A stretch of 5,601 nt of DNA from a virus. Taxonomy: Duplodnaviria > Heunggongvirae > Uroviricota > Caudoviricetes. The notes under the pieces were generated by a model. The model saw only the letters and a list, made by a program, of their open reading frames with translations, had not been told where the DNA came from and did no database searches. The stretch spans positions 1 through 5,601 of IMG/VR virus record IMGVR_UViG_3300015185_000041; one strand, 5' to 3'. Shown in pieces: positions 1 through 5,601 of this stretch. How positions within the stretch are numbered: the stretch's first letter is position 1; the number at the start of each line of letters is the position of its first letter. The position numbers were made by a program, and so were the translations under genes.

Positions 1-202
1 CCTCATTTCCCCTTAACGCCGGGGTAGCGGAACAAAAACCTGCTGCATAGTTATTAAAGTTGAACCCTGCCGTCATGTTCTTACGCCTCGGGCTGGCTAC
101 TTAACCCCTGACCACTGCCGGGTAACTCGAAGTATTGCCTGGCGTTCTGTGGGGCGGGGTGGGTTGATGAATGAACAATACCACTACTATTTAATTATGT
201 AA

Positions 203-215
203 ATAGCAGTGCTAT
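203..215. promoter_or_regulatory. OL-like operator: perfect 13-bp palindrome ATAGCA-G-TGCTAT
   Basis: Same palindrome family as the two sites in the repressor/cro intergenic region (1301-1313 and 1326-1338). It lies just past the terminator of the repressor operon, the position of OL in lambda. Confidence 0.5.
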
Positions 216-227
216 TATCGTGGCAAG

Positions 228-250
228 AAAAAAACCACCCGAAGGTGGTT
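228..250 (-). terminator. Intrinsic terminator closing the leftward regulator-antitoxin-toxin operon
   Basis: On the minus strand the RNA reads AACCACC-UUCG-GGUGGUU followed by a U run (plus-strand A run 228-234). GC-rich stem with a UUCG tetraloop, 15 bp past the toxin stop codon (265-267). Confidence 0.8.
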
Positions 251-264
251 GTTGACAGGAAGGA

Positions 265-555
265 TTAACAGGTTTTGTTTGGATACTGTCTTCGTGAGTG
301 AACTACATTTACGATCTCGATGTTAGATGCTGTTACTCGGTAAAGTATTATGTAGTTAGGATGAGTCACTATCTCACGAAGACTTGGAACTCTTTCGCTC
401 GGTGGGTACAGATAAGGGTGTTCAGTAAGTGACAAAACTGATGTTTCAATGCGTATTTTTAGTCTACGTGCAGCGGGAGGGTTTTCCTTAGCAATATAGG
501 CTACGATCTGACGTAAATCATCACGTGCAGAAGGTAGCCATAAAATGGGCAGCAT
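265..555 (-). CDS. parE: ParE/RelE-superfamily type II toxin (96 aa)
   Basis: Size and motifs (LPILWLPSARDDL..., ...HPNYIILYRV..., ...IEIVNVVHSRRQYP) fit ParE-family toxins. Its ATG shares one base with the TAA stop of the upstream antitoxin ORF (TAATG), the typical antitoxin-then-toxin coupling. Confidence 0.75.
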   Translation of the reverse strand: MLPILWLPSARDDLRQIVAYIAKENPPAARRLKIRIETSVLSLTEHPYLYPPSERVPSLREIVTHPNYIILYRVTASNIEIVNVVHSRRQYPNKTC

Positions 556-746
556 TACTCACTCCTGTTCGTTGCAGCTAATTGAGCAATAAGGTTTTCC
601 ATTTCAGCCATTACTTCGTCATGTGGAATTGCAGGACGGGGATCTGAGAGGCTTGCTGCCACTTTGGTTCGCAACCATTCGTTATAGCTGTTTTCTTGTT
701 CGACTGTTTCAAATTCAGAAATTATCGGGGAAAGGGCTGTACTCAT
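555..746 (-). CDS. paaA: Small type II antitoxin (63 aa), PaaA/ParD-like
   Basis: 63-aa ORF directly upstream of and coupled to the ParE-like toxin. Strong RBS (GGAGG, about 7-nt spacer). It resembles, from memory, the PaaA antitoxins of PaaR-PaaA-ParE systems; the gene symbol is a recollection, not a search result. Confidence 0.6.
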   Translation of the reverse strand: MSTALSPIISEFETVEQENSYNEWLRTKVAASLSDPRPAIPHDEVMAEMENLIAQLAATNRSE

Positions 747-763
747 GTTTTTACCTCCTCAGA

Positions 764-1264
764 TTAGGCGCGACGACCCTTTTGCGCAGCTAGCCATCGC
801 GCAACGATTTCTTCAATTGATTCTTTTTTCTCCTTCATTTCCTTAAGCATTTTCTCTTTATCTTCTTTGGGGAAAGCCCTGAACGTCTGGAGCAAATCCC
901 GCTCCATGGGGTCTATATTAAACGGAAGTTCGTTTTCCGATTGTTCCATATCTGCAGATATAGTGACAACATTGTCCTCCCCAGATTCTTGGGGATACAT
1001 CCTTACAATTTGTAACAACTCGGCCATATCTGGTCTGATTGACTCGGGAGGAACTTGCAGCAACCCTGCGAACTTGATAACAGCCTCAAGATTTAAAGGT
1101 GTCTGACCATTTAGATAATGGCTTACAGCTCCCTGTGTCGAAAATCCCAGAATTTCTGCCGCACGCTCTTGGGTTAACCCTAGTTGATTTTTTTTCGCCG
1201 TCCAGATTTCTTTCAGTCTCTGGGCGGCTTGCAGGTCGATCTCTGACAGGGATTTTCTTTTCAT
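764..1264 (-). CDS. HTH (XRE/Cro-CI family) regulator, prophage repressor-like and PaaR-like; no S24 peptidase domain (166 aa)
   Basis: Helix-turn-helix motif LGLTQERAAEILGFSTQGAVSHYLNG in the N-terminal half. The C-terminal half is acidic and lysine-rich and lacks an Ala-Gly cleavage site or Ser/Lys peptidase motifs. It faces a cro-like gene across an operator-bearing intergenic region and sits 17 bp upstream of the antitoxin on the same strand. Confidence 0.75.
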   Translation of the reverse strand: MKRKSLSEIDLQAAQRLKEIWTAKKNQLGLTQERAAEILGFSTQGAVSHYLNGQTPLNLEAVIKFAGLLQVPPESIRPDMAELLQIVRMYPQESGEDNVVTISADMEQSENELPFNIDPMERDLLQTFRAFPKEDKEKMLKEMKEKKESIEEIVARWLAAQKGRRA

Positions 1265-1371
1265 ACCTTCAATTCTAATAAGATTATTAATCTCTTTGAA
1301 ATAGTGATGCTATTTACTTTTAAAAATAACAATGCTATTAATGATCGTGATGACATCACATGAGGTGAACA
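1265..1371. promoter_or_regulatory. Divergent immunity control region (OR-like operators with candidate PR and PRM promoters)
   Basis: Operator-like palindromes ATAGTG-A-TGCTAT (1301-1313) and ATAACA-A-TGCTAT (1326-1338). Candidate rightward promoter: -35 TTTACT (1313-1318), 17-bp spacer, -10 TATTAAT (1336-1342). Candidate leftward promoter on the minus strand: -35 TTCAAA (plus 1295-1300), 17-bp spacer, -10 TAGAAT (plus 1272-1277), which would start the transcript at or near the repressor AUG. Two further palindromes: TAATAA-GA-TTATTA (1276-1289) and GTGATG-A-CATCAC (1347-1359). Confidence 0.55.
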
Positions 1372-1647
1372 ATGAATCTTGGAGAATATTTGCATCATTC
1401 CGGTATAACTCAGAAGCATTTTGCTGAAATTGTTGGGGTAACCCAAGGGATGGTAAGCCATGTCATTACCGGACGGGCGAAACTTACGGGGAAAAAAATT
1501 TTACGCTGGTGCGAAGCAACAGGCTGGATAGTAACTCCGCACGAGATTGATGGCAGTACTTATCCCAACCCAACCGACGGCTTACCTGTCGAGTATCAGG
1601 CTAACACACAACCAGAGGCGGGGGTGATTCATGAAAATCAAGCATGA
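1372..1647 (+). CDS. Cro-like HTH regulator, YdaS family (91 aa)
   Basis: Helix-turn-helix motif (ITQKHFAEIVGVTQGMVSHVITG), RBS GAGGTG upstream, divergent from the repressor across the operator region; small size and position match cro. Confidence 0.7.
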   Translation: MNLGEYLHHSGITQKHFAEIVGVTQGMVSHVITGRAKLTGKKILRWCEATGWIVTPHEIDGSTYPNPTDGLPVEYQANTQPEAGVIHENQA

Positions 1648-2063: not shown

Positions 2064-3041
2064 GTGTTCGGGGGTTTTATGAGCAGCAAGCTTCATGGTC
2101 TTGTCTGGGAAGGGTGCGCCTTCACCGGCATGATCTTATCCAGGGTGGCGGTTATGGCCCGTCTTGCAGACTACAGCAATGACGAGGGCGTGTCATGGCC
2201 TGCCATTGAAACTATCCGGCGTCAGATCGGTGCAAGAAGTGAATCCACAGTGAAATCGGCTATTGCAGAACTGGCGAAAGAGGGCTGGCTGACGAAGGAA
2301 GAGCGTAAGGTCGGTGGGCGTAATGTAAGCAATATCTATCGGCTTAATGTGGAAAAACTCGAAGCAGCTGCGGCGGCGGCGCGTGAGTCATATAAACCGA
2401 AAAGAAAAATTAGCCCGGCAAAAAATGACCCGTTAACAGTTGACCCGTCAAATATTGACCCCTCAACGGTTGACCCGTCAAATTTTGATGGATCAACTGT
2501 TGATAAAAAACTGCCGATTAGGGGGCCGATGATTGACCCCGATCCGTCAGTATTAAAACCTGATCCGTCAGATAAAAGATCTTCTTGTCCGGACGCTTCG
2601 CAACCGGACCCGCAGACGGCTGAACAGGATTTTTTAACCCGACACCCTGACGCGGTTGTGTTCAGTGCGAAAAAACGCCAGTGGGGAAGTCAGGAAGATT
2701 TGGTGTGCGCACAGTGGATCTGGGGACGAATCGTGAGTCTTTACGAGCAGGCGGCCAGCTATGATGGCGAGATCACTAGACCGAAAGAACCCAACTGGAC
2801 AGCATGGGCCAATGACGTTCGCACAATGCGGATGCTGGATGGCAGAACTCACAGACAAATTTGTGAAATGTTTGGGCGTCTCCAGCGGGATTCGTTCTGG
2901 GTAAAAAACATCATGAGTCCGGCAAAACTCCGGGAAAAATGGGATGAACTGGTTATCCGCCTGGGGCGTTCGCCTGCGCAGCGTTGCGTGAATCACATTT
3001 CTGAACCGGACACTGAAATTCCGCCGGGCTTCAGGGGGTAA
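2064..3041 (+). CDS. Replication initiator / replisome organizer: N-terminal winged-HTH, iteron-encoded linker, C-terminal DnaT-like domain (325 aa)
   Basis: The ORF opens at GTG 2064; ATG 2079 (MSSKLHG...) preceded by GGGGG is an alternative start. The repetitive linker (DPLTVDPSNIDPSTVDPSNFDGSTVD) is encoded by tandem DNA repeats, as ori-lambda lies inside O. The C-terminal tail ...VNHISEPDTEIPPGFRG closely matches the recalled E. coli DnaT tail ...VNTVSEPDSQIPPGFRG. Confidence 0.75.
   Translation: MFGGFMSSKLHGLVWEGCAFTGMILSRVAVMARLADYSNDEGVSWPAIETIRRQIGARSESTVKSAIAELAKEGWLTKEERKVGGRNVSNIYRLNVEKLEAAAAAARESYKPKRKISPAKNDPLTVDPSNIDPSTVDPSNFDGSTVDKKLPIRGPMIDPDPSVLKPDPSDKRSSCPDASQPDPQTAEQDFLTRHPDAVVFSAKKRQWGSQEDLVCAQWIWGRIVSLYEQAASYDGEITRPKEPNWTAWANDVRTMRMLDGRTHRQICEMFGRLQRDSFWVKNIMSPAKLREKWDELVIRLGRSPAQRCVNHISEPDTEIPPGFRG
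2426..2515. repeat. Putative replication-origin iterons: five to six tandem 15-bp repeats (core TTGAC-CC-GTCAA)
   Basis: Head-to-tail 15-mers: TGACCCGTTAACAGT, TGACCCGTCAAATAT, TGACCCCTCAACGGT, TGACCCGTCAAATTT, TGATGGATCAACTGT, then a degenerate TGATAAAAAACTGCC. Related CCGTCAG copies occur at about 2541-2570. An A-rich tract (about 2395-2425) flanks them on the left. Confidence 0.7.
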
Positions 3042-4539: not shown

Positions 4540-4793
4540 GCGAGGTTAATTATCAGGAAGGGCATGAAACGGCGGGGCAAGCAAAAACAGTGGCATGGCG
4601 ATATCGCTACGTGAAAAAAAAGGCGTTACGGACTTTCAGGGGAAGTAGTGGTCTGGTGACTGGAAATATGTACCGAAAAAAGAGGATTGTAACGACAGGC
4701 CGAACTATGAAATTCAGGCCTTATTCACTGCCCCGCCAGTCCCGGTTACATCAGAAGAACTGGTTAAAGCTGTGCACTTTTATGAACAACTAA
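4536..4793 (+). CDS. Hypothetical basic small protein (85 aa); reading frame uncertain, possibly disrupted
   Basis: ATG coupled to the upstream stop. The product is very basic and uses rare Arg codons, while a more protein-like frame with no start codon runs alongside at 4649-4852 (see findings). Confidence 0.35.
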   Translation: MSEVNYQEGHETAGQAKTVAWRYRYVKKKALRTFRGSSGLVTGNMYRKKRIVTTGRTMKFRPYSLPRQSRLHQKNWLKLCTFMNN

Positions 4794-5022
4794 AACGCGA
4801 AAATCCACCAGCATCCGGAAACCTGATTACAGATTCCCAGATAAGGCAATGAGCTACCTGGCGCAGAACGGGCTGATAAGTATGGGGAATGTTTTACGAT
4901 GAATATTTAGACTAAAGAGTTTGTAACGCTATGTAAGTGATTTTTTCTGGTTTAGATATTTATATGTCCGGCCAAATTGAGGTGTGTTTAAATGTAATTG
5001 CACATTGATTGTAGGAGGAATA

Positions 5023-5257: not shown

Positions 5258-5460
5258 TTGCGGGGAAATCTTAGTTAAGTAGAATGACTGCGGGTGCTTG
5301 AGGCTATCTGTCTCAGGCATGAACACCAAAAGGCAGATAGAGAAAAGCCCCAGTTAACATTACGCGTCCTGCAAGACGCTTAACATTAATCTGAGGCCAT
5401 ATCTATGCGACACATAGAGATTAGCCTCTTACGGACCGAAAGGTCAAGGAGAAGCAGGCT
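5258..5460 (+). promoter_or_regulatory. Hok mRNA leader: candidate promoter and structured 5' UTR
   Basis: Candidate promoter: -35 TTGCGG (5258-5263), 16-bp spacer, -10 TAGAAT (5280-5285). 10-bp stem at 5304-5313 paired with 5331-5340, 17-nt loop. Hairpin 5402-5418 sequesters the AUG of the short upstream ORF. Confidence 0.4.
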
Positions 5461-5464
5461 ATGA
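5405..5464 (+). CDS. Short upstream ORF (19 aa) coupled to hok; possible Mok analogue
   Basis: ATG 5405 with GAGG 8 nt upstream; TGA stop overlaps the hok ATG (ATGA). Product MRHIEISLLRTERSRRSRL. Confidence 0.3.
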   Translation: MRHIEISLLRTERSRRSRL

Positions 5465-5601
5465 AGCAGCAAAAGGCGATGTTAATCGCCCTGATCGTCA
5501 TCTGTTTAACCGTCATTGTGACGGCACTGGTAACGAGGAAAGACCTCTGCGAGGTACGAATCCGAACCGGCCAGACGGAGGTCGCTGTCTTCACAGCTTA
5601 C
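5461..5601 (+). CDS. hok: Hok/Gef-family type I toxin, truncated by the window edge
   Basis: MKQQKAMLIALIVICLTVIVTALVTRKDLCEVRIRTGQTEVAVFTAY is near-identical to recalled HokD/HokC sequences. RBS AAGGAG with 9-nt spacer. About four codons are missing beyond position 5601. Confidence 0.85.
   Translation, partial: MKQQKAMLIALIVICLTVIVTALVTRKDLCEVRIRTGQTEVAVFTAY

What the first reader, a model, noticed from the sequence alone, without database searches (positions are those of the whole stretch)
228..1264. ParE-family toxin-antitoxin pair in one operon with the prophage repressor-like regulator
Three same-strand genes run regulator (764-1264), antitoxin (555-746), toxin (265-555) with a 17-bp gap and then a one-base start/stop overlap, closed by a terminator at 228-250. 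This is the slot lambda uses for rexAB downstream of cI. The layout resembles the three-component PaaR-PaaA-ParE systems I recall from E. coli O157 prophages, but here the regulator faces a cro-like gene across an operator region. If it is the immunity repressor, antitoxin supply would be tied to the lysogenic state, so repressor shut-off could release ParE. That would make this an induction-coupled abortive or exclusion device rather than a simple addiction module.
Basis: partly seen in the sequence, partly recalled or inferred. Interest (0 to 1): 0.6.

Follow-up and report, generated by a model that had tools for sequence, protein, structure and literature searches.

The report
Known-type prophage ParE toxin-antitoxin module
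This is a new immunity-type variant of the already characterised E. coli prophage PaaR-PaaA-ParE toxin-antitoxin module, sitting behind the prophage repressor where lambda keeps rexAB. It is real and tidy, but ordinary.

Summary
Three minus-strand genes are present: an HTH regulator (764-1264), a PaaA-family antitoxin (555-746) and a ParE toxin (265-555). They are separated by a 17-nt gap and a 1-nt stop/start overlap, and end at a canonical terminator (250-233 plus a T-run).

The toxin and antitoxin are close homologues of the solved E. coli O157:H7 ParE2/PaaA2 pair. They are 84-85% identical to the second O157:H7 paralogue.

The regulator is the prophage immunity repressor. It has a lambda-CI-like N-terminal domain and a PaaR/DicA-type C-terminal domain, with no LexA-type cleavage domain. 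Its 15-bp palindromic operators occur as 25-bp-spaced pairs at OR (1300-1339) and at an OL/PL site (177-216). Its promoter geometry predicts a leaderless transcript.

In that homologue ParE2 was not activated in either switch state, and the locus acted as an addiction module. This argues against the proposed induction-coupled toxin release.

Only the repressor DNA-binding domain and its operators are new. Verdict: new member of a known kind, low interest.

The parts
175..216 (-). OL/PL-like control region. It holds two 15-bp palindromic operators (177-191 AATACCACTACTATT; 202-216 AATAGCAGTGCTATT), centres 25 bp apart. They overlap a leftward sigma-70-like promoter (-35 TTTACA 203..198, 17-nt spacer, -10 TATTGT 180..175) that reads into the ydfA-ydfB-ydfC-dicB operon.
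   Evidence: In the 99%-identical prophage the genes downstream are DUF1391/ydfA, ydfB, ydfC and dicB. In four immunity types the OL motif matches that type's own OR motif.
226..250 (-). Intrinsic terminator that closes the regulator-antitoxin-toxin operon. It has a 7-bp G+C-rich stem, a UUCG loop and a U-run.
   Evidence: It lies 14 nt after the parE stop codon (sequence).
265..555 (-). parE: a 96-aa ParE-family toxin. It is 85% identical to the second O157:H7 paralogue and 65% identical to ParE2.
   Evidence: Pfam PF05016 E=6.6e-18. PDB 5cw7_B ParE2 E=5e-36. Identities. Against the other alleles pN is 0.07-0.10 while pS is about 0.75, i.e. saturated.
555..746 (-). paaA: a 63-aa PaaA-family antitoxin with no DNA-binding domain. 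Its stop codon overlaps the parE start by one base, and it has a strong Shine-Dalgarno sequence (GAGGAGG).
   Evidence: Pfam PF21217 PaaA2 E=1e-21. NCBIfam NF050103 E=1e-26. PDB 3zbe PaaA2 E=2e-22. 84% identical to the second O157:H7 paralogue and 62% to PaaA2.
764..1264 (-). Immunity repressor, 166 aa (a PaaR/DicA-family member with a new specificity). Residues 1-90 form a lambda-CI-like five-helix DNA-binding domain, residues 90-113 a disordered linker, and residues 115-166 a two-helix PaaR/DicA-type C-terminal domain. There is no S24 peptidase domain.
   Evidence: HTH_3 hit. Lambda CI N-terminal domain E~1e-9, 38% identity. DicA C-terminus hit NF007257 E=1.5e-7 (alignment). C-terminal domain 68-70% identical to PaaR1-type and 48% to PaaR2. 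AlphaFold model with domain layout.
1265..1371 (.). OR-like divergent control region, 107 bp. The operators are 1300-1314 AATAGTGATGCTATT and 1325-1339 AATAACAATGCTATT, 25 bp apart. The PRM-like promoter on the minus strand is -35 TTCAAA 1300..1295, 17-nt spacer, -10 TAGAAT 1277..1272. It ends 7 nt before the regulator ATG, so the mRNA is predicted to be leaderless. The PR-like promoter on the plus strand is -35 TTTACT 1313-1318, 17-nt spacer, -10 TATTAA 1336-1341. Extra palindromes are TAATAAGATTATTA (1276-1289) and GTGATGACATCAC (1347-1359).
   Evidence: PR was read from the sequence by its parallel with PL. Leaderless paaR2 and PRM/PR were shown experimentally in CP-933P.
1372..1647 (+). 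ydaS-like HTH gene, the Cro analogue. Its N-terminal HTH part is specific to this immunity type, and its C-terminal part is shared with other types.
   Evidence: HTH_3 hit. phrog_35 transcriptional repressor E=3.6e-20. Mosaic boundaries at 1557/1625. The functional assignment comes from PMC8630535.
1624..1641 (.). Candidate YdaT (CII-analogue) operator GTGATTCATGAAAATCAA at the ydaS/ydaT junction. It has one mismatch to TTGATTN6AATCAA. This is where the YdaT-activated leftward PRE-type promoter is expected to feed the regulator-antitoxin-toxin operon.
   Evidence: a single match, which is not significant on its own (expected 0.49). The position is the same as the footprinted OM site in CP-933P (PMC9986795).
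1631..2056 (+). ydaT, the CII-like activator. It is 99% identical to the YdaT gene next to a PaaR2-type locus.
   Evidence: Pfam PF06254. phrog_163 CII-like activator E=3e-48. Identities.

Best explanation
The locus is a PaaR-PaaA-ParE three-component type II toxin-antitoxin module embedded in the immunity region of a Qin/Rac/CP-933-like lambdoid prophage of E. coli.

The 166-aa regulator is the prophage's CI-type immunity repressor. Dimers bind the 15-bp palindromes as cooperative pairs at OR and at OL. There they repress the rightward ydaS-ydaT (Cro/CII-analogue) promoter and the leftward ydfA-dicB promoter, and they control the repressor's own leaderless promoter.

The antitoxin and toxin genes ride as passengers on the repressor transcript. 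They are translationally coupled and end at their own terminator just before OL/PL, exactly as rexAB does behind lambda cI. A second, YdaT-activated promoter at the ydaS/ydaT junction probably also feeds the operon.

PaaA, which is short, has no DNA-binding domain and is protease-labile in the homologue, neutralises ParE, a nucleoid-targeting, SOS-inducing toxin. Loss or replacement of the immunity segment stops antitoxin resupply and kills or arrests the cell. The pair therefore acts as an addiction module that stabilises the prophage immunity region.

Shown here: gene identities, the operon layout, the terminator, the operator sets and their co-variation with the repressor DNA-binding domain, and the mosaic boundaries.

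Inferred from the characterised homologue: co-transcription, the leaderless start, toxicity, antitoxin lability, addiction, and the lack of toxin release on switching.
For: Toxin and antitoxin identity: (Pfam, NCBIfam, and the PDB ParE2/PaaA2 hits at E=5e-36 and 2e-22). One search gives 85%/84% identity to the second O157:H7 paralogue and 65%/62% to ParE2/PaaA2.

Operon layout and terminator. No promoter-like site at the scan threshold lies in the conserved 747-894 stretch.

Repressor role:
- The N-terminal domain is homologous to the lambda CI N-terminal domain.
- The C-terminal domain is homologous to PaaR1/PaaR2/DicA.
- Operator pairs occur at both OR and OL with the same 25-bp spacing.
- In four different immunity types the OL sequence matches that type's own OR sequence.
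- The segment specific to this type is 895-1556, i.e. repressor N-terminal domain, OR and the ydaS N-terminal part. The flanks are shared at 71-99%.

Cargo status of the toxin-antitoxin pair:
- In K-12 Qin, dicA is followed directly by OL/PL and ydfA, with no toxin-antitoxin pair.
- Double-HTH relatives with the same C-terminal domain also lack the pair.
- All 8 distinct genomic contexts of this exact regulator carry PaaA and ParE next to it, while the replication modules vary.

Purifying selection: pN is 0.07-0.10 for both genes. dN/dS is about 0.06-0.12 for paaA and 0.03 for the one parE comparison that could be calculated, because the other parE synonymous sites are saturated.

Published mechanism for the homologue (PMC8630535; PMC9986795; PMC4803016): one operon from a promoter upstream of paaR, a leaderless paaR2, PaaR2/YdaS footprints on OR, PL933P, YdaT-activated PRE, bistability, no SOS signal in either state, and stabilisation of a mini-F plasmid.
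Against: - Nothing was measured for this variant. The transcript structure, toxicity, cognate neutralisation and DNA binding are all extrapolated.
- The regulator's N-terminal domain is not homologous to that of PaaR1 or PaaR2 beyond a generic HTH, so its regulatory details (for example PRM activation) may differ.
- The YdaT site is a single one-mismatch match that is not significant on its own.
- The addiction role on a chromosome, as opposed to on a plasmid, is a proposal even for CP-933P.
- The host prophage here looks more complete than CP-933P, so lytic-cycle behaviour could matter.
Confidence: 0.82

Rival explanations
1. Induction-coupled toxin release. When the repressor is switched off and the Cro-like YdaS shuts PRM, antitoxin synthesis stops, labile PaaA decays and ParE is freed. 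The module would then act during prophage induction as an abortive, commitment or exclusion device.
For: - The toxin-antitoxin pair has no detectable promoter of its own in the conserved stretch. It depends on PRM and probably PRE.
- PaaA2 is degraded by ClpAP and ClpXP in the homologue.
- The host prophage appears largely intact, with integrase through terminase.
- A sequenced phage genome, Evi, carries the PaaR2-type module with an intact parE2.
Against: - In CP-933P the pair is still transcribed in the ydaST-on state.
- SOS-positive cells are equal in the two states (0.88% versus 0.95%) and equal to control.
- A paaR2 stop mutant is viable and simply locks cells in the ydaST-on state.
- The regulator lacks an S24 autocleavage domain, so there is no obvious SOS trigger.
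- A toxin that poisons DNA topology during the phage's own replication would be self-harming.
Confidence: 0.08
2. Anti-phage defence in the rexAB slot. The pair is expressed from the repressor transcript in lysogens and is triggered by superinfecting phages, for example through host shut-off or antitoxin degradation, causing abortive infection.
For: - The position is identical to lambda rexAB.
- Many type II toxin-antitoxin systems give abortive infection (general knowledge).
- The module is kept under strong purifying selection and is widespread. The exact regulator is listed in 4966 blocks of the collection, and a PaaA/ParE-like block occurs in 842 of 5426 complete E. coli genomes.
Against: - No PADLOC defence-family hit for toxin, antitoxin or regulator.
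- No report of phage defence for PaaA/ParE in the papers found.
- Post-segregational killing is the only demonstrated phenotype.
Confidence: 0.08
3. A free-standing three-part toxin-antitoxin system. The regulator would be only a 'split antitoxin' DNA-binding component dedicated to the pair, with no prophage immunity function.
For: This is how the PaaR systems were first described (Hallez 2010 as summarised in PMC4803016). PaaA lacks a DNA-binding domain.
Against: - The same operators occur 1.1 kb away at the promoter of the ydfA-dicB operon.
- Operators at OR and OL co-vary with the regulator N-terminal domain in four immunity types.
- Repressors with the same C-terminal domain exist without any toxin-antitoxin pair, namely DicA and the double-HTH forms.
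- The N-terminal domain is a lambda CI homologue.
Confidence: 0.02

Closest known systems
paaR2-paaA2-parE2 with ydaS-ydaT in cryptic prophage CP-933P of E. coli O157:H7 EDL933 (Hallez 2010; Jurenas 2021, PMC8630535)
   Same: - Same gene order and strands: regulator, PaaA, ParE, then the OL/PL site and the ydfA-dicB side.
- A divergent ydaS-ydaT pair, followed by an O-like replication gene.
- Short gaps and overlaps between the three genes, and a -10 element placed for a leaderless regulator mRNA.
- ParE 65% and PaaA 62% identical. Regulator C-terminal domain 48% identical. YdaT 99% identical to the copy in a PaaR2-type locus.
   Different: - The regulator N-terminal domain is unrelated. Here it is a lambda-CI-type five-helix domain plus a roughly 25-residue disordered linker (166 aa versus 123 aa).
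- The operators differ: a 15-bp AATAGCNNTGCTATT palindrome in pairs, versus the GTTTAGTAA-based repeats reported for CP-933P.
- The ydaS N-terminal part differs. The result is a different immunity specificity.
Second O157:H7 paralogue, presumably paaR1-paaA1-parE1 of CP-933M. It was identified here by elimination as the non-PaaR2 locus in O157:H7 strain 611 (L002).
   Same: This is the closest toxin-antitoxin allele: ParE 85% and PaaA 84% identical. The regulator C-terminal domain is 68% identical. The flanking ydfA leader and ydaT are the same.
   Different: The regulator N-terminal domain (133-aa protein), the OR/OL operators (ACAATAAAAAACTGTT... motif) and the ydaS N-terminal part are all different. 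I could not read Hallez 2010 to confirm the PaaR1 sequence directly.
Lambda cI-rexA-rexB in the lambda immunity region
   Same: - Same topology: PL/OL, then cargo genes, then repressor, then PRM/OR/PR, then cro and cII.
- The cargo is co-transcribed with a leaderless repressor gene.
- The repressor N-terminal domain is 38% identical to the lambda CI N-terminal domain.
- The 25-bp operator spacing is close to lambda's 23-24 bp (the lambda figure is from my own knowledge).
   Different: - The cargo is a ParE/PaaA toxin-antitoxin pair, not RexAB.
- The repressor has a short helical PaaR/DicA-type C-terminal domain instead of the S24 autocleavage and oligomerisation domain.
- Only two clear operators per site were found, rather than three.
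DicA-DicC and the ydfABC-dicF-dicB operon of the K-12 Qin prophage
   Same: The backbone is the same: repressor, then OL/PL, then the ydfA leader ending in ...GTTCCGCTACCCC.GCGTTAAGGGGAAATGAGG. The repressor C-terminal domain is homologous (NF007257 E=1.5e-7). A divergent Cro-like gene is present.
   Different: Qin has no toxin-antitoxin pair and no terminator between dicA and OL/PL. This shows the pair is an optional insertion in this slot.
Canonical ParD-ParE (RK2, Caulobacter, Vibrio parDE)
   Same: The toxin has the ParE fold and belongs to the ParE family (PF05016; weaker PDB hits 6x0a and 5ceg).
   Different: The antitoxin is PaaA, not a ribbon-helix-helix ParD, and does not carry the operator-binding function. 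Transcription is controlled by a separate repressor.

Membership tests
PaaR-PaaA-ParE three-component toxin-antitoxin systems (Hallez 2010) | A ParE-family toxin closely related to ParE1/ParE2 | tested here: met
   PF05016 E=6.6e-18. PDB ParE2 5cw7_B E=5e-36 over residues 1-92. 85% identical to the second O157:H7 paralogue and 65% to ParE2.
PaaR-PaaA-ParE three-component toxin-antitoxin systems (Hallez 2010) | A PaaA-family antitoxin: short, with no DNA-binding domain, encoded immediately upstream of parE | tested here: met
   PF21217 PaaA2 E=1e-21. PDB PaaA2 3zbe E=2e-22. 63 aa, with a one-base stop/start overlap with parE.
PaaR-PaaA-ParE three-component toxin-antitoxin systems (Hallez 2010) | A third, upstream gene for an HTH transcriptional regulator in the same operon | tested here: met
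   The HTH_3 regulator lies 17 nt upstream on the same strand. There is no terminator-like site between them, no promoter-like site in the conserved 747-894 stretch, and a single terminator after parE. Co-transcription itself was not measured.
PaaR-PaaA-ParE three-component toxin-antitoxin systems (Hallez 2010) | Regulator homologous to PaaR1/PaaR2 | tested here: inconclusive
   The C-terminal 50 residues are 68-70% identical to PaaR1-type proteins and 48% to PaaR2. The N-terminal DNA-binding domain is only 21-27% identical, a generic HTH level, and is instead a lambda CI N-terminal domain homologue. It is a domain-level member with a swapped DNA-binding domain.
PaaR-PaaA-ParE three-component toxin-antitoxin systems (Hallez 2010) | Toxicity of ParE, specific neutralisation by the cognate PaaA, protease-labile PaaA, and post-segregational killing | not testable with these tools
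   These are known only for the O157:H7 systems. Low dN/dS (paaA about 0.06-0.12; parE 0.03 where it could be calculated) indicates the genes are kept functional.
Lambdoid immunity region of the PaaR2/YdaS/YdaT (CI/Cro/CII-analogue) type | Divergent repressor and Cro-like genes separated by about 100 bp that carry repeated palindromic operators overlapping both promoters | tested here: met
   The intergenic region is 107 bp. Operators lie at 1300-1314 and 1325-1339 and overlap the PR-like -35/-10 elements and the PRM-like -35.
Lambdoid immunity region of the PaaR2/YdaS/YdaT (CI/Cro/CII-analogue) type | A second operator set (OL) at a leftward early promoter beyond the cargo genes | tested here: met
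   Operators lie at 177-191 and 202-216 over the promoter at 203..175(-). OL and OR co-vary in four immunity types.
Lambdoid immunity region of the PaaR2/YdaS/YdaT (CI/Cro/CII-analogue) type | Leaderless repressor mRNA | tested here: inconclusive
   The -10 element TAGAAT ends 7 nt before the ATG, and no usable Shine-Dalgarno spacing is present. The geometry is the same in the PaaR2- and PaaR1-type loci. The transcription start site was not measured.
Lambdoid immunity region of the PaaR2/YdaS/YdaT (CI/Cro/CII-analogue) type | A YdaT (CII-analogue) gene with its TTGATTN6AATCAA site at the ydaS/ydaT junction | tested here: met
   YdaT hits PF06254 and phrog_163. The site GTGATTCATGAAAATCAA lies at 1624-1641 with one mismatch, in the same position as the OM site in PMC9986795. 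The site match alone is not statistically significant.
Lambda CI / LexA-type SOS-cleavable repressors | A C-terminal S24 peptidase (autocleavage) domain | tested here: not met
   There is no Peptidase_S24 hit. The model shows only a disordered linker and two helices after residue 90. Only a distant relative, P0105, carries PF00717.
Canonical ParD-ParE toxin-antitoxin systems | A ribbon-helix-helix ParD antitoxin that autoregulates the operon | tested here: not met
   The antitoxin hits only the PaaA2 family in Pfam and the NCBIfam model NF050103 (named 'RelB family antitoxin'). No ParD or ribbon-helix-helix family was found.
Known anti-phage defence systems (PADLOC) | Match to a catalogued defence protein family | tested here: not met
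   No PADLOC hit for toxin, antitoxin, regulator or YdaT. Only weak HTH-level hits were found for the Cro-like protein.

The most novel reading that the evidence does not exclude
The toxin-antitoxin pair has no promoter of its own and lies between the type-specific OL and OR. It may therefore be more than a generic addiction module. One possibility is an immunity-linked lock that kills lysogens whose immunity segment is replaced by a heteroimmune one. Another is that, in an inducible phage, ParE is released once YdaS shuts PRM. Neither is excluded for this more intact prophage, which has a different repressor from CP-933P.
Probability: 0.1. Interest if true: 0.55.

Novelty: new member of a known kind. 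Interest (0 to 1): 0.2.

Why it matters
The finding matters mainly as confirmation. It shows that the published CP-933P arrangement, a ParE/PaaA pair riding on the immunity-repressor transcript in the rexAB slot, is a general and modular feature of E. coli Qin/Rac/CP-933-like prophages.

A PaaA/ParE-like block occurs in 842 of 5426 complete E. coli genomes, and at least four heteroimmune repressor types are involved.

In this variant the repressor N-terminal domain is recognisably homologous to lambda CI, whereas PaaR2 was called a CI analogue 'despite lacking sequence similarity'. This strengthens the assignment of PaaR as a CI equivalent. It also offers a second, clean operator set (15-bp palindromes, 2+2 sites) for testing how PaaR/DicA-type C-terminal domains mediate cooperative or looping repression.

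The finding does not open a new kind of system.

Tried and rejected
- **PADLOC** scan of the five proteins: nothing for toxin, antitoxin or regulator.
- **Phage collection:** only one record, phage Evi, and it is the PaaR2 type. No sequenced phage carries this variant.
- **Independent promoter for paaA-parE:** the only minus-strand candidate inside the regulator gene (969..940) is a bare consensus match in the part specific to this immunity type. Nothing at threshold lies in the conserved 747-894 stretch, and promoter-like sites overall are no more frequent than in shuffles (4 versus 3.4). I therefore make no claim either way.
- **YdaT site:** one match against 0.49 expected. I accept it only because of its position.
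- **Third OR operator on the 25-bp register (about 1275-1289):** it has more than 3 mismatches to the consensus. A different 14-bp palindrome sits there and is left unexplained.
- **Fold search of the regulator model:** only the N-terminal domain matched (lambda CI). The C-terminal domain gave no informative match.
- **Strict co-divergence of toxin-antitoxin allele with immunity type:** rejected, because L005 combines an L004-type regulator with a ParE2/PaaA2-like pair.
- **Synonymous differences above 0.75 in parE:** considered as possible selection for nucleotide divergence. With about 66 synonymous sites this is within sampling error, so I read it as saturation.
- **Papers:** Hallez 2010 and De Bruyn 2019 could not be read. 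What I say about them comes from PMC8630535 and PMC4803016.
Full report

Yes, at the stated coordinates. The ORF list gives three consecutive minus-strand ORFs: 764-1264 (166 aa), 555-746 (63 aa) and 265-555 (96 aa).

Reading the sequence, the regulator stop codon is at 764-766 and the next ATG is at 746. The gap is therefore 17 nt, and it contains a GAGGAGG ribosome-binding site. The 63-aa ORF's TAA and the 96-aa ORF's ATG share base 555 (TAATG), which is a classic translational-coupling overlap.

Fourteen nucleotides after the last stop codon lies a canonical intrinsic terminator on the minus strand. Its stem is AACCACC-UUCG-GGUGGUU at 250..233, followed by a U-run. No terminator-like site separates the three genes.

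**2. What are the three proteins?**

- **The 96-aa protein** hits Pfam ParE_toxin (E=6.6e-18). It also hits the crystal-structure sequence of E. coli O157:H7 ParE2 (5cw7_B, E=5e-36 over residues 1-92).
- **The 63-aa protein** hits Pfam PaaA2 (E=1e-21) and PDB PaaA2 (3zbe, E=2e-22).
- **The 166-aa protein** has an HTH_3 domain. Its first 90 residues match the lambda CI N-terminal domain by sequence (E~1e-9, 38% identity) and by predicted fold (TM 0.81-0.93 to the lambda CI N-terminal domain).

The AlphaFold model of the regulator shows five N-terminal helices, a disordered linker at residues 90-113, and a C-terminal helix-turn-long-helix at 119-165.

That C-terminal part matches the C-terminus of DicA (NF007257 positions 75-130, E=1.5e-7; alignment). 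It is 68-70% identical to the C-termini of PaaR1-type regulators and 48% identical to PaaR2. There is no S24 peptidase domain.

**3. Surroundings**

The window is 99% identical to an E. coli prophage integrated next to ompW. In that prophage the minus-strand genes downstream of the toxin are ydfA (DUF1391), ydfB, ydfC, dicB, an exonuclease, xis and int.

To the right lie a divergent HTH gene (1372-1647, YdaS/Cro-like), a YdaT family gene (1631-2056, phrog 'CII-like activator') and an O-like replication gene.

The 107-bp divergent region carries two copies of a 15-bp palindrome, AATAGTGATGCTATT at 1300-1314 and AATAACAATGCTATT at 1325-1339. Two more copies sit just beyond the terminator, at 177-191 and 202-216. 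In both pairs the centres are 25 bp apart. The pattern search gave 8 strand-matches against 1.75 expected, and no shuffle out of 200 reached 8.

The left pair overlaps a leftward promoter-like site (TTTACA, 17-nt spacer, TATTGT, 203..175). The right pair overlaps a rightward TTTACT, 17-nt spacer, TATTAA, read from the sequence by its parallel with the left site (repeat D2). It also abuts a leftward TTCAAA, 17-nt spacer, TAGAAT whose -10 element ends 7 nt before the regulator ATG. That geometry predicts a leaderless mRNA.

A one-mismatch copy of the published YdaT operator, TTGATTN6AATCAA, lies at 1624-1641, exactly at the ydaS/ydaT junction. By chance alone this match is not significant. Its position matches the footprinted site in CP-933P.

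**4. Comparison with related loci**

In complete E. coli genomes, 72 of 5426 carry the full three-gene block. A diverged PaaA/ParE-like block is present in 842 genomes. The PaaR2-type block is in 595 genomes, including EDL933.

I fetched four other types:
- L002 and L003: the second O157:H7 paralogue, presumably PaaR1.
- L004 and L005: a third type.
- L006: the PaaR2 type. Its regulator starts MQKKE, as sequenced in PMC8630535.
- L007: phage Evi, also PaaR2 type.

BLASTN shows the window is homologous to all of them over positions 1-894 at 71-76%, and again from 1557 or 1625 onwards at 85-99%. It is not homologous over 895-1556. The unique segment is therefore the repressor N-terminal domain, OR and the N-terminal HTH part of the Cro-like gene. 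This is a textbook heteroimmune 'imm' substitution.

Within the otherwise conserved left flank, the roughly 45-bp OL/PL cassette is also type-specific. In each of the four types it matches that type's own OR sequence.

This co-variation of operators with the regulator's DNA-binding domain, at two sites 1.1 kb apart, is the strongest evidence here that the regulator is the prophage immunity repressor. It also shows that the regulator controls the ydfA-dicB promoter as well as PR and PRM.

**5. The toxin-antitoxin pair is cargo in the repressor's downstream slot**

- In K-12 Qin, dicA is followed directly by operators, a promoter and the same ydfA leader, with no toxin-antitoxin pair.
- Relatives of 244-255 aa combine a window-type N-terminal domain with a complete PaaR1-like protein. 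They have the same C-terminal domain but no PaaA/ParE downstream.
- All eight non-redundant contexts of this exact regulator carry PaaA and ParE next to it, while the replication modules vary.

The toxin-antitoxin alleles are old and constrained. Between types, nonsynonymous differences are 0.07-0.10 while parE synonymous sites are saturated. dN/dS is about 0.06-0.12 for paaA. Meanwhile the neighbouring ydaT is 98-99% identical to the copies in L004 and L006.

L005 shows that toxin-antitoxin alleles can reassort between immunity types.

**6. What is already known**

Jurenas et al. 2021 (PMC8630535) showed the following for paaR2-paaA2-parE2 of CP-933P:
- The locus sits in the immunity region.
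- paaR2 is leaderless.
- PaaR2 and YdaS footprint the 97-bp intergenic region.
- A PL/OL site exists beyond parE2.
- YdaT activates a PRE-type promoter.
- The switch is bistable.

They also showed that the toxin-antitoxin pair is transcribed in both states. SOS-positive cells do not differ between states or from control. A paaR2 stop mutant only loses the RAE2-on subpopulation. The whole region stabilises a mini-F plasmid by post-segregational killing. They propose that it protects the immunity region from rearrangement or replacement.

[quoted passage not shown] PMC4803016 summarises Hallez 2010: the three genes are co-transcribed from a promoter upstream of paaR, PaaA lacks a DNA-binding role of its own, and the two O157:H7 paralogues do not cross-neutralise.

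**7.

The observation, the ParE/PaaA identification, the operon reading, the immunity-repressor idea, the rexAB-slot analogy and the recalled PaaR-PaaA-ParE resemblance are all correct.

The claimed distinction from PaaR systems is not a distinction, because the published system has the same divergent Cro-like gene and operators.

The induction-coupled abortive or exclusion idea is untested for this variant. The only relevant experiments, on the homologue, contradict it. In addition, the repressor lacks the SOS-cleavage domain, and PADLOC has no defence family for these proteins. I keep the idea as a low-probability rival, because this prophage looks more complete than CP-933P and a sequenced phage genome (Evi) carries the sister module.

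**8. Most likely mechanism**

The repressor binds paired operators at OR and OL. Binding is probably cooperative, and possibly involves looping through the PaaR/DicA-type C-terminal domain. PaaR2 is reported to be octameric. Binding silences PR (ydaS-ydaT and replication) and PL (ydfA-dicB).

The repressor's own leaderless transcript continues through paaA and parE to the terminator. PaaA neutralises ParE. If the segment is lost, or replaced by a version without a cognate antitoxin, the stable toxin outlasts the labile antitoxin.

Shown here: the anatomy, the homologies, the operator co-variation and the mosaic boundaries. Inferred from homologues: the transcript structure, toxicity, antitoxin lability and addiction.

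**9. Novelty and score**

The system type is known, and so is its embedding in the immunity region. What is not described in the papers I could search is this immunity type: a lambda-CI-like DNA-binding domain fused to the PaaR C-terminal domain, with its own 15-bp operators.

That makes it a new member of a known kind. It is useful as a second model of the same circuit but not surprising. Interest is 0.2.

Noticed in passing
window 5292-5601: A second, unrelated toxin-antitoxin system of type I. There is an Rfam sok antisense RNA match (RF01794, 106.7 bits) at 5292-5463(+). A Hok/Gef-family ORF starts at 5461 (Pfam E=9e-24) and runs off the end of the window. It is annotated hokD in the near-identical prophage.
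   Followed up: partly
window 2405-2479 (inside the O-like gene 2064-3041): Four iteron-like repeats with a 15-bp period (core TTGACCCGTCAA) lie inside the replication-initiator gene. This resembles the lambda origin inside gene O and is probably the prophage origin of replication (phrog_391 O-like).
   Followed up: partly
proteins P0087, P0093, P0094; loci L017-L021 4001-4768: These 244-255-aa 'double-HTH' repressors consist of a window-type lambda-CI-like N-terminal domain fused in front of a complete PaaR1-like protein (a second HTH plus the PaaR C-terminal domain). Their loci have YdaS/YdaT-like neighbours but no PaaA/ParE downstream. The window regulator looks like the same protein without the second HTH.
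   Followed up: partly
window 1347-1359 and 1276-1289: Two further perfect palindromes in the OR region do not match the main operator consensus. GTGATGACATCAC lies between the PR-like -10 element and the ydaS ribosome-binding site. TAATAAGATTATTA lies over the PRM-like -10 element. They may be sites for the Cro-like protein, a weak third operator, or chance (sequence).
   Followed up: no
L007 (Escherichia phage Evi LR597642) about 2660-2940, minus strand: The deposited phage genome annotates the PaaR2-like regulator and PaaA2 but not the toxin. An intact 92-aa ORF identical to ParE2 is present and unannotated.
   Followed up: partly
window 265-746 versus L002-L006: The parE alleles of different immunity types differ at essentially every synonymous site (pS about 0.75-0.85) but at few nonsynonymous ones (pN 0.07-0.10). 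The adjacent ydaT is 98-99% identical at the nucleotide level to the copies in two of the compared types (L004, L006). So ancient toxin-antitoxin and immunity cassettes sit in recently shared prophage backbones.
   Followed up: partly
window 190-218, plus strand: Because the OL operators are palindromic, a rightward promoter-like arrangement (TTTAAT, 17-nt spacer, TATTAT) can also be read at OL. It would point antisense into parE. Its -35 element is weak (3 of 6) and it falls below the scan threshold. This was read from the sequence only.
   Followed up: no
window about 4540-4930 versus L001: The best genomic match (H1) covers only 92% of the window, in two pieces. It spans about 1.3 kb more DNA than the window (6,941 bp in the record versus 5,601 bp). 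Some small ORFs in the record's late-early region (DUF551, DUF4014 and neighbours) may therefore be missing from or rearranged in the window.
   Followed up: no
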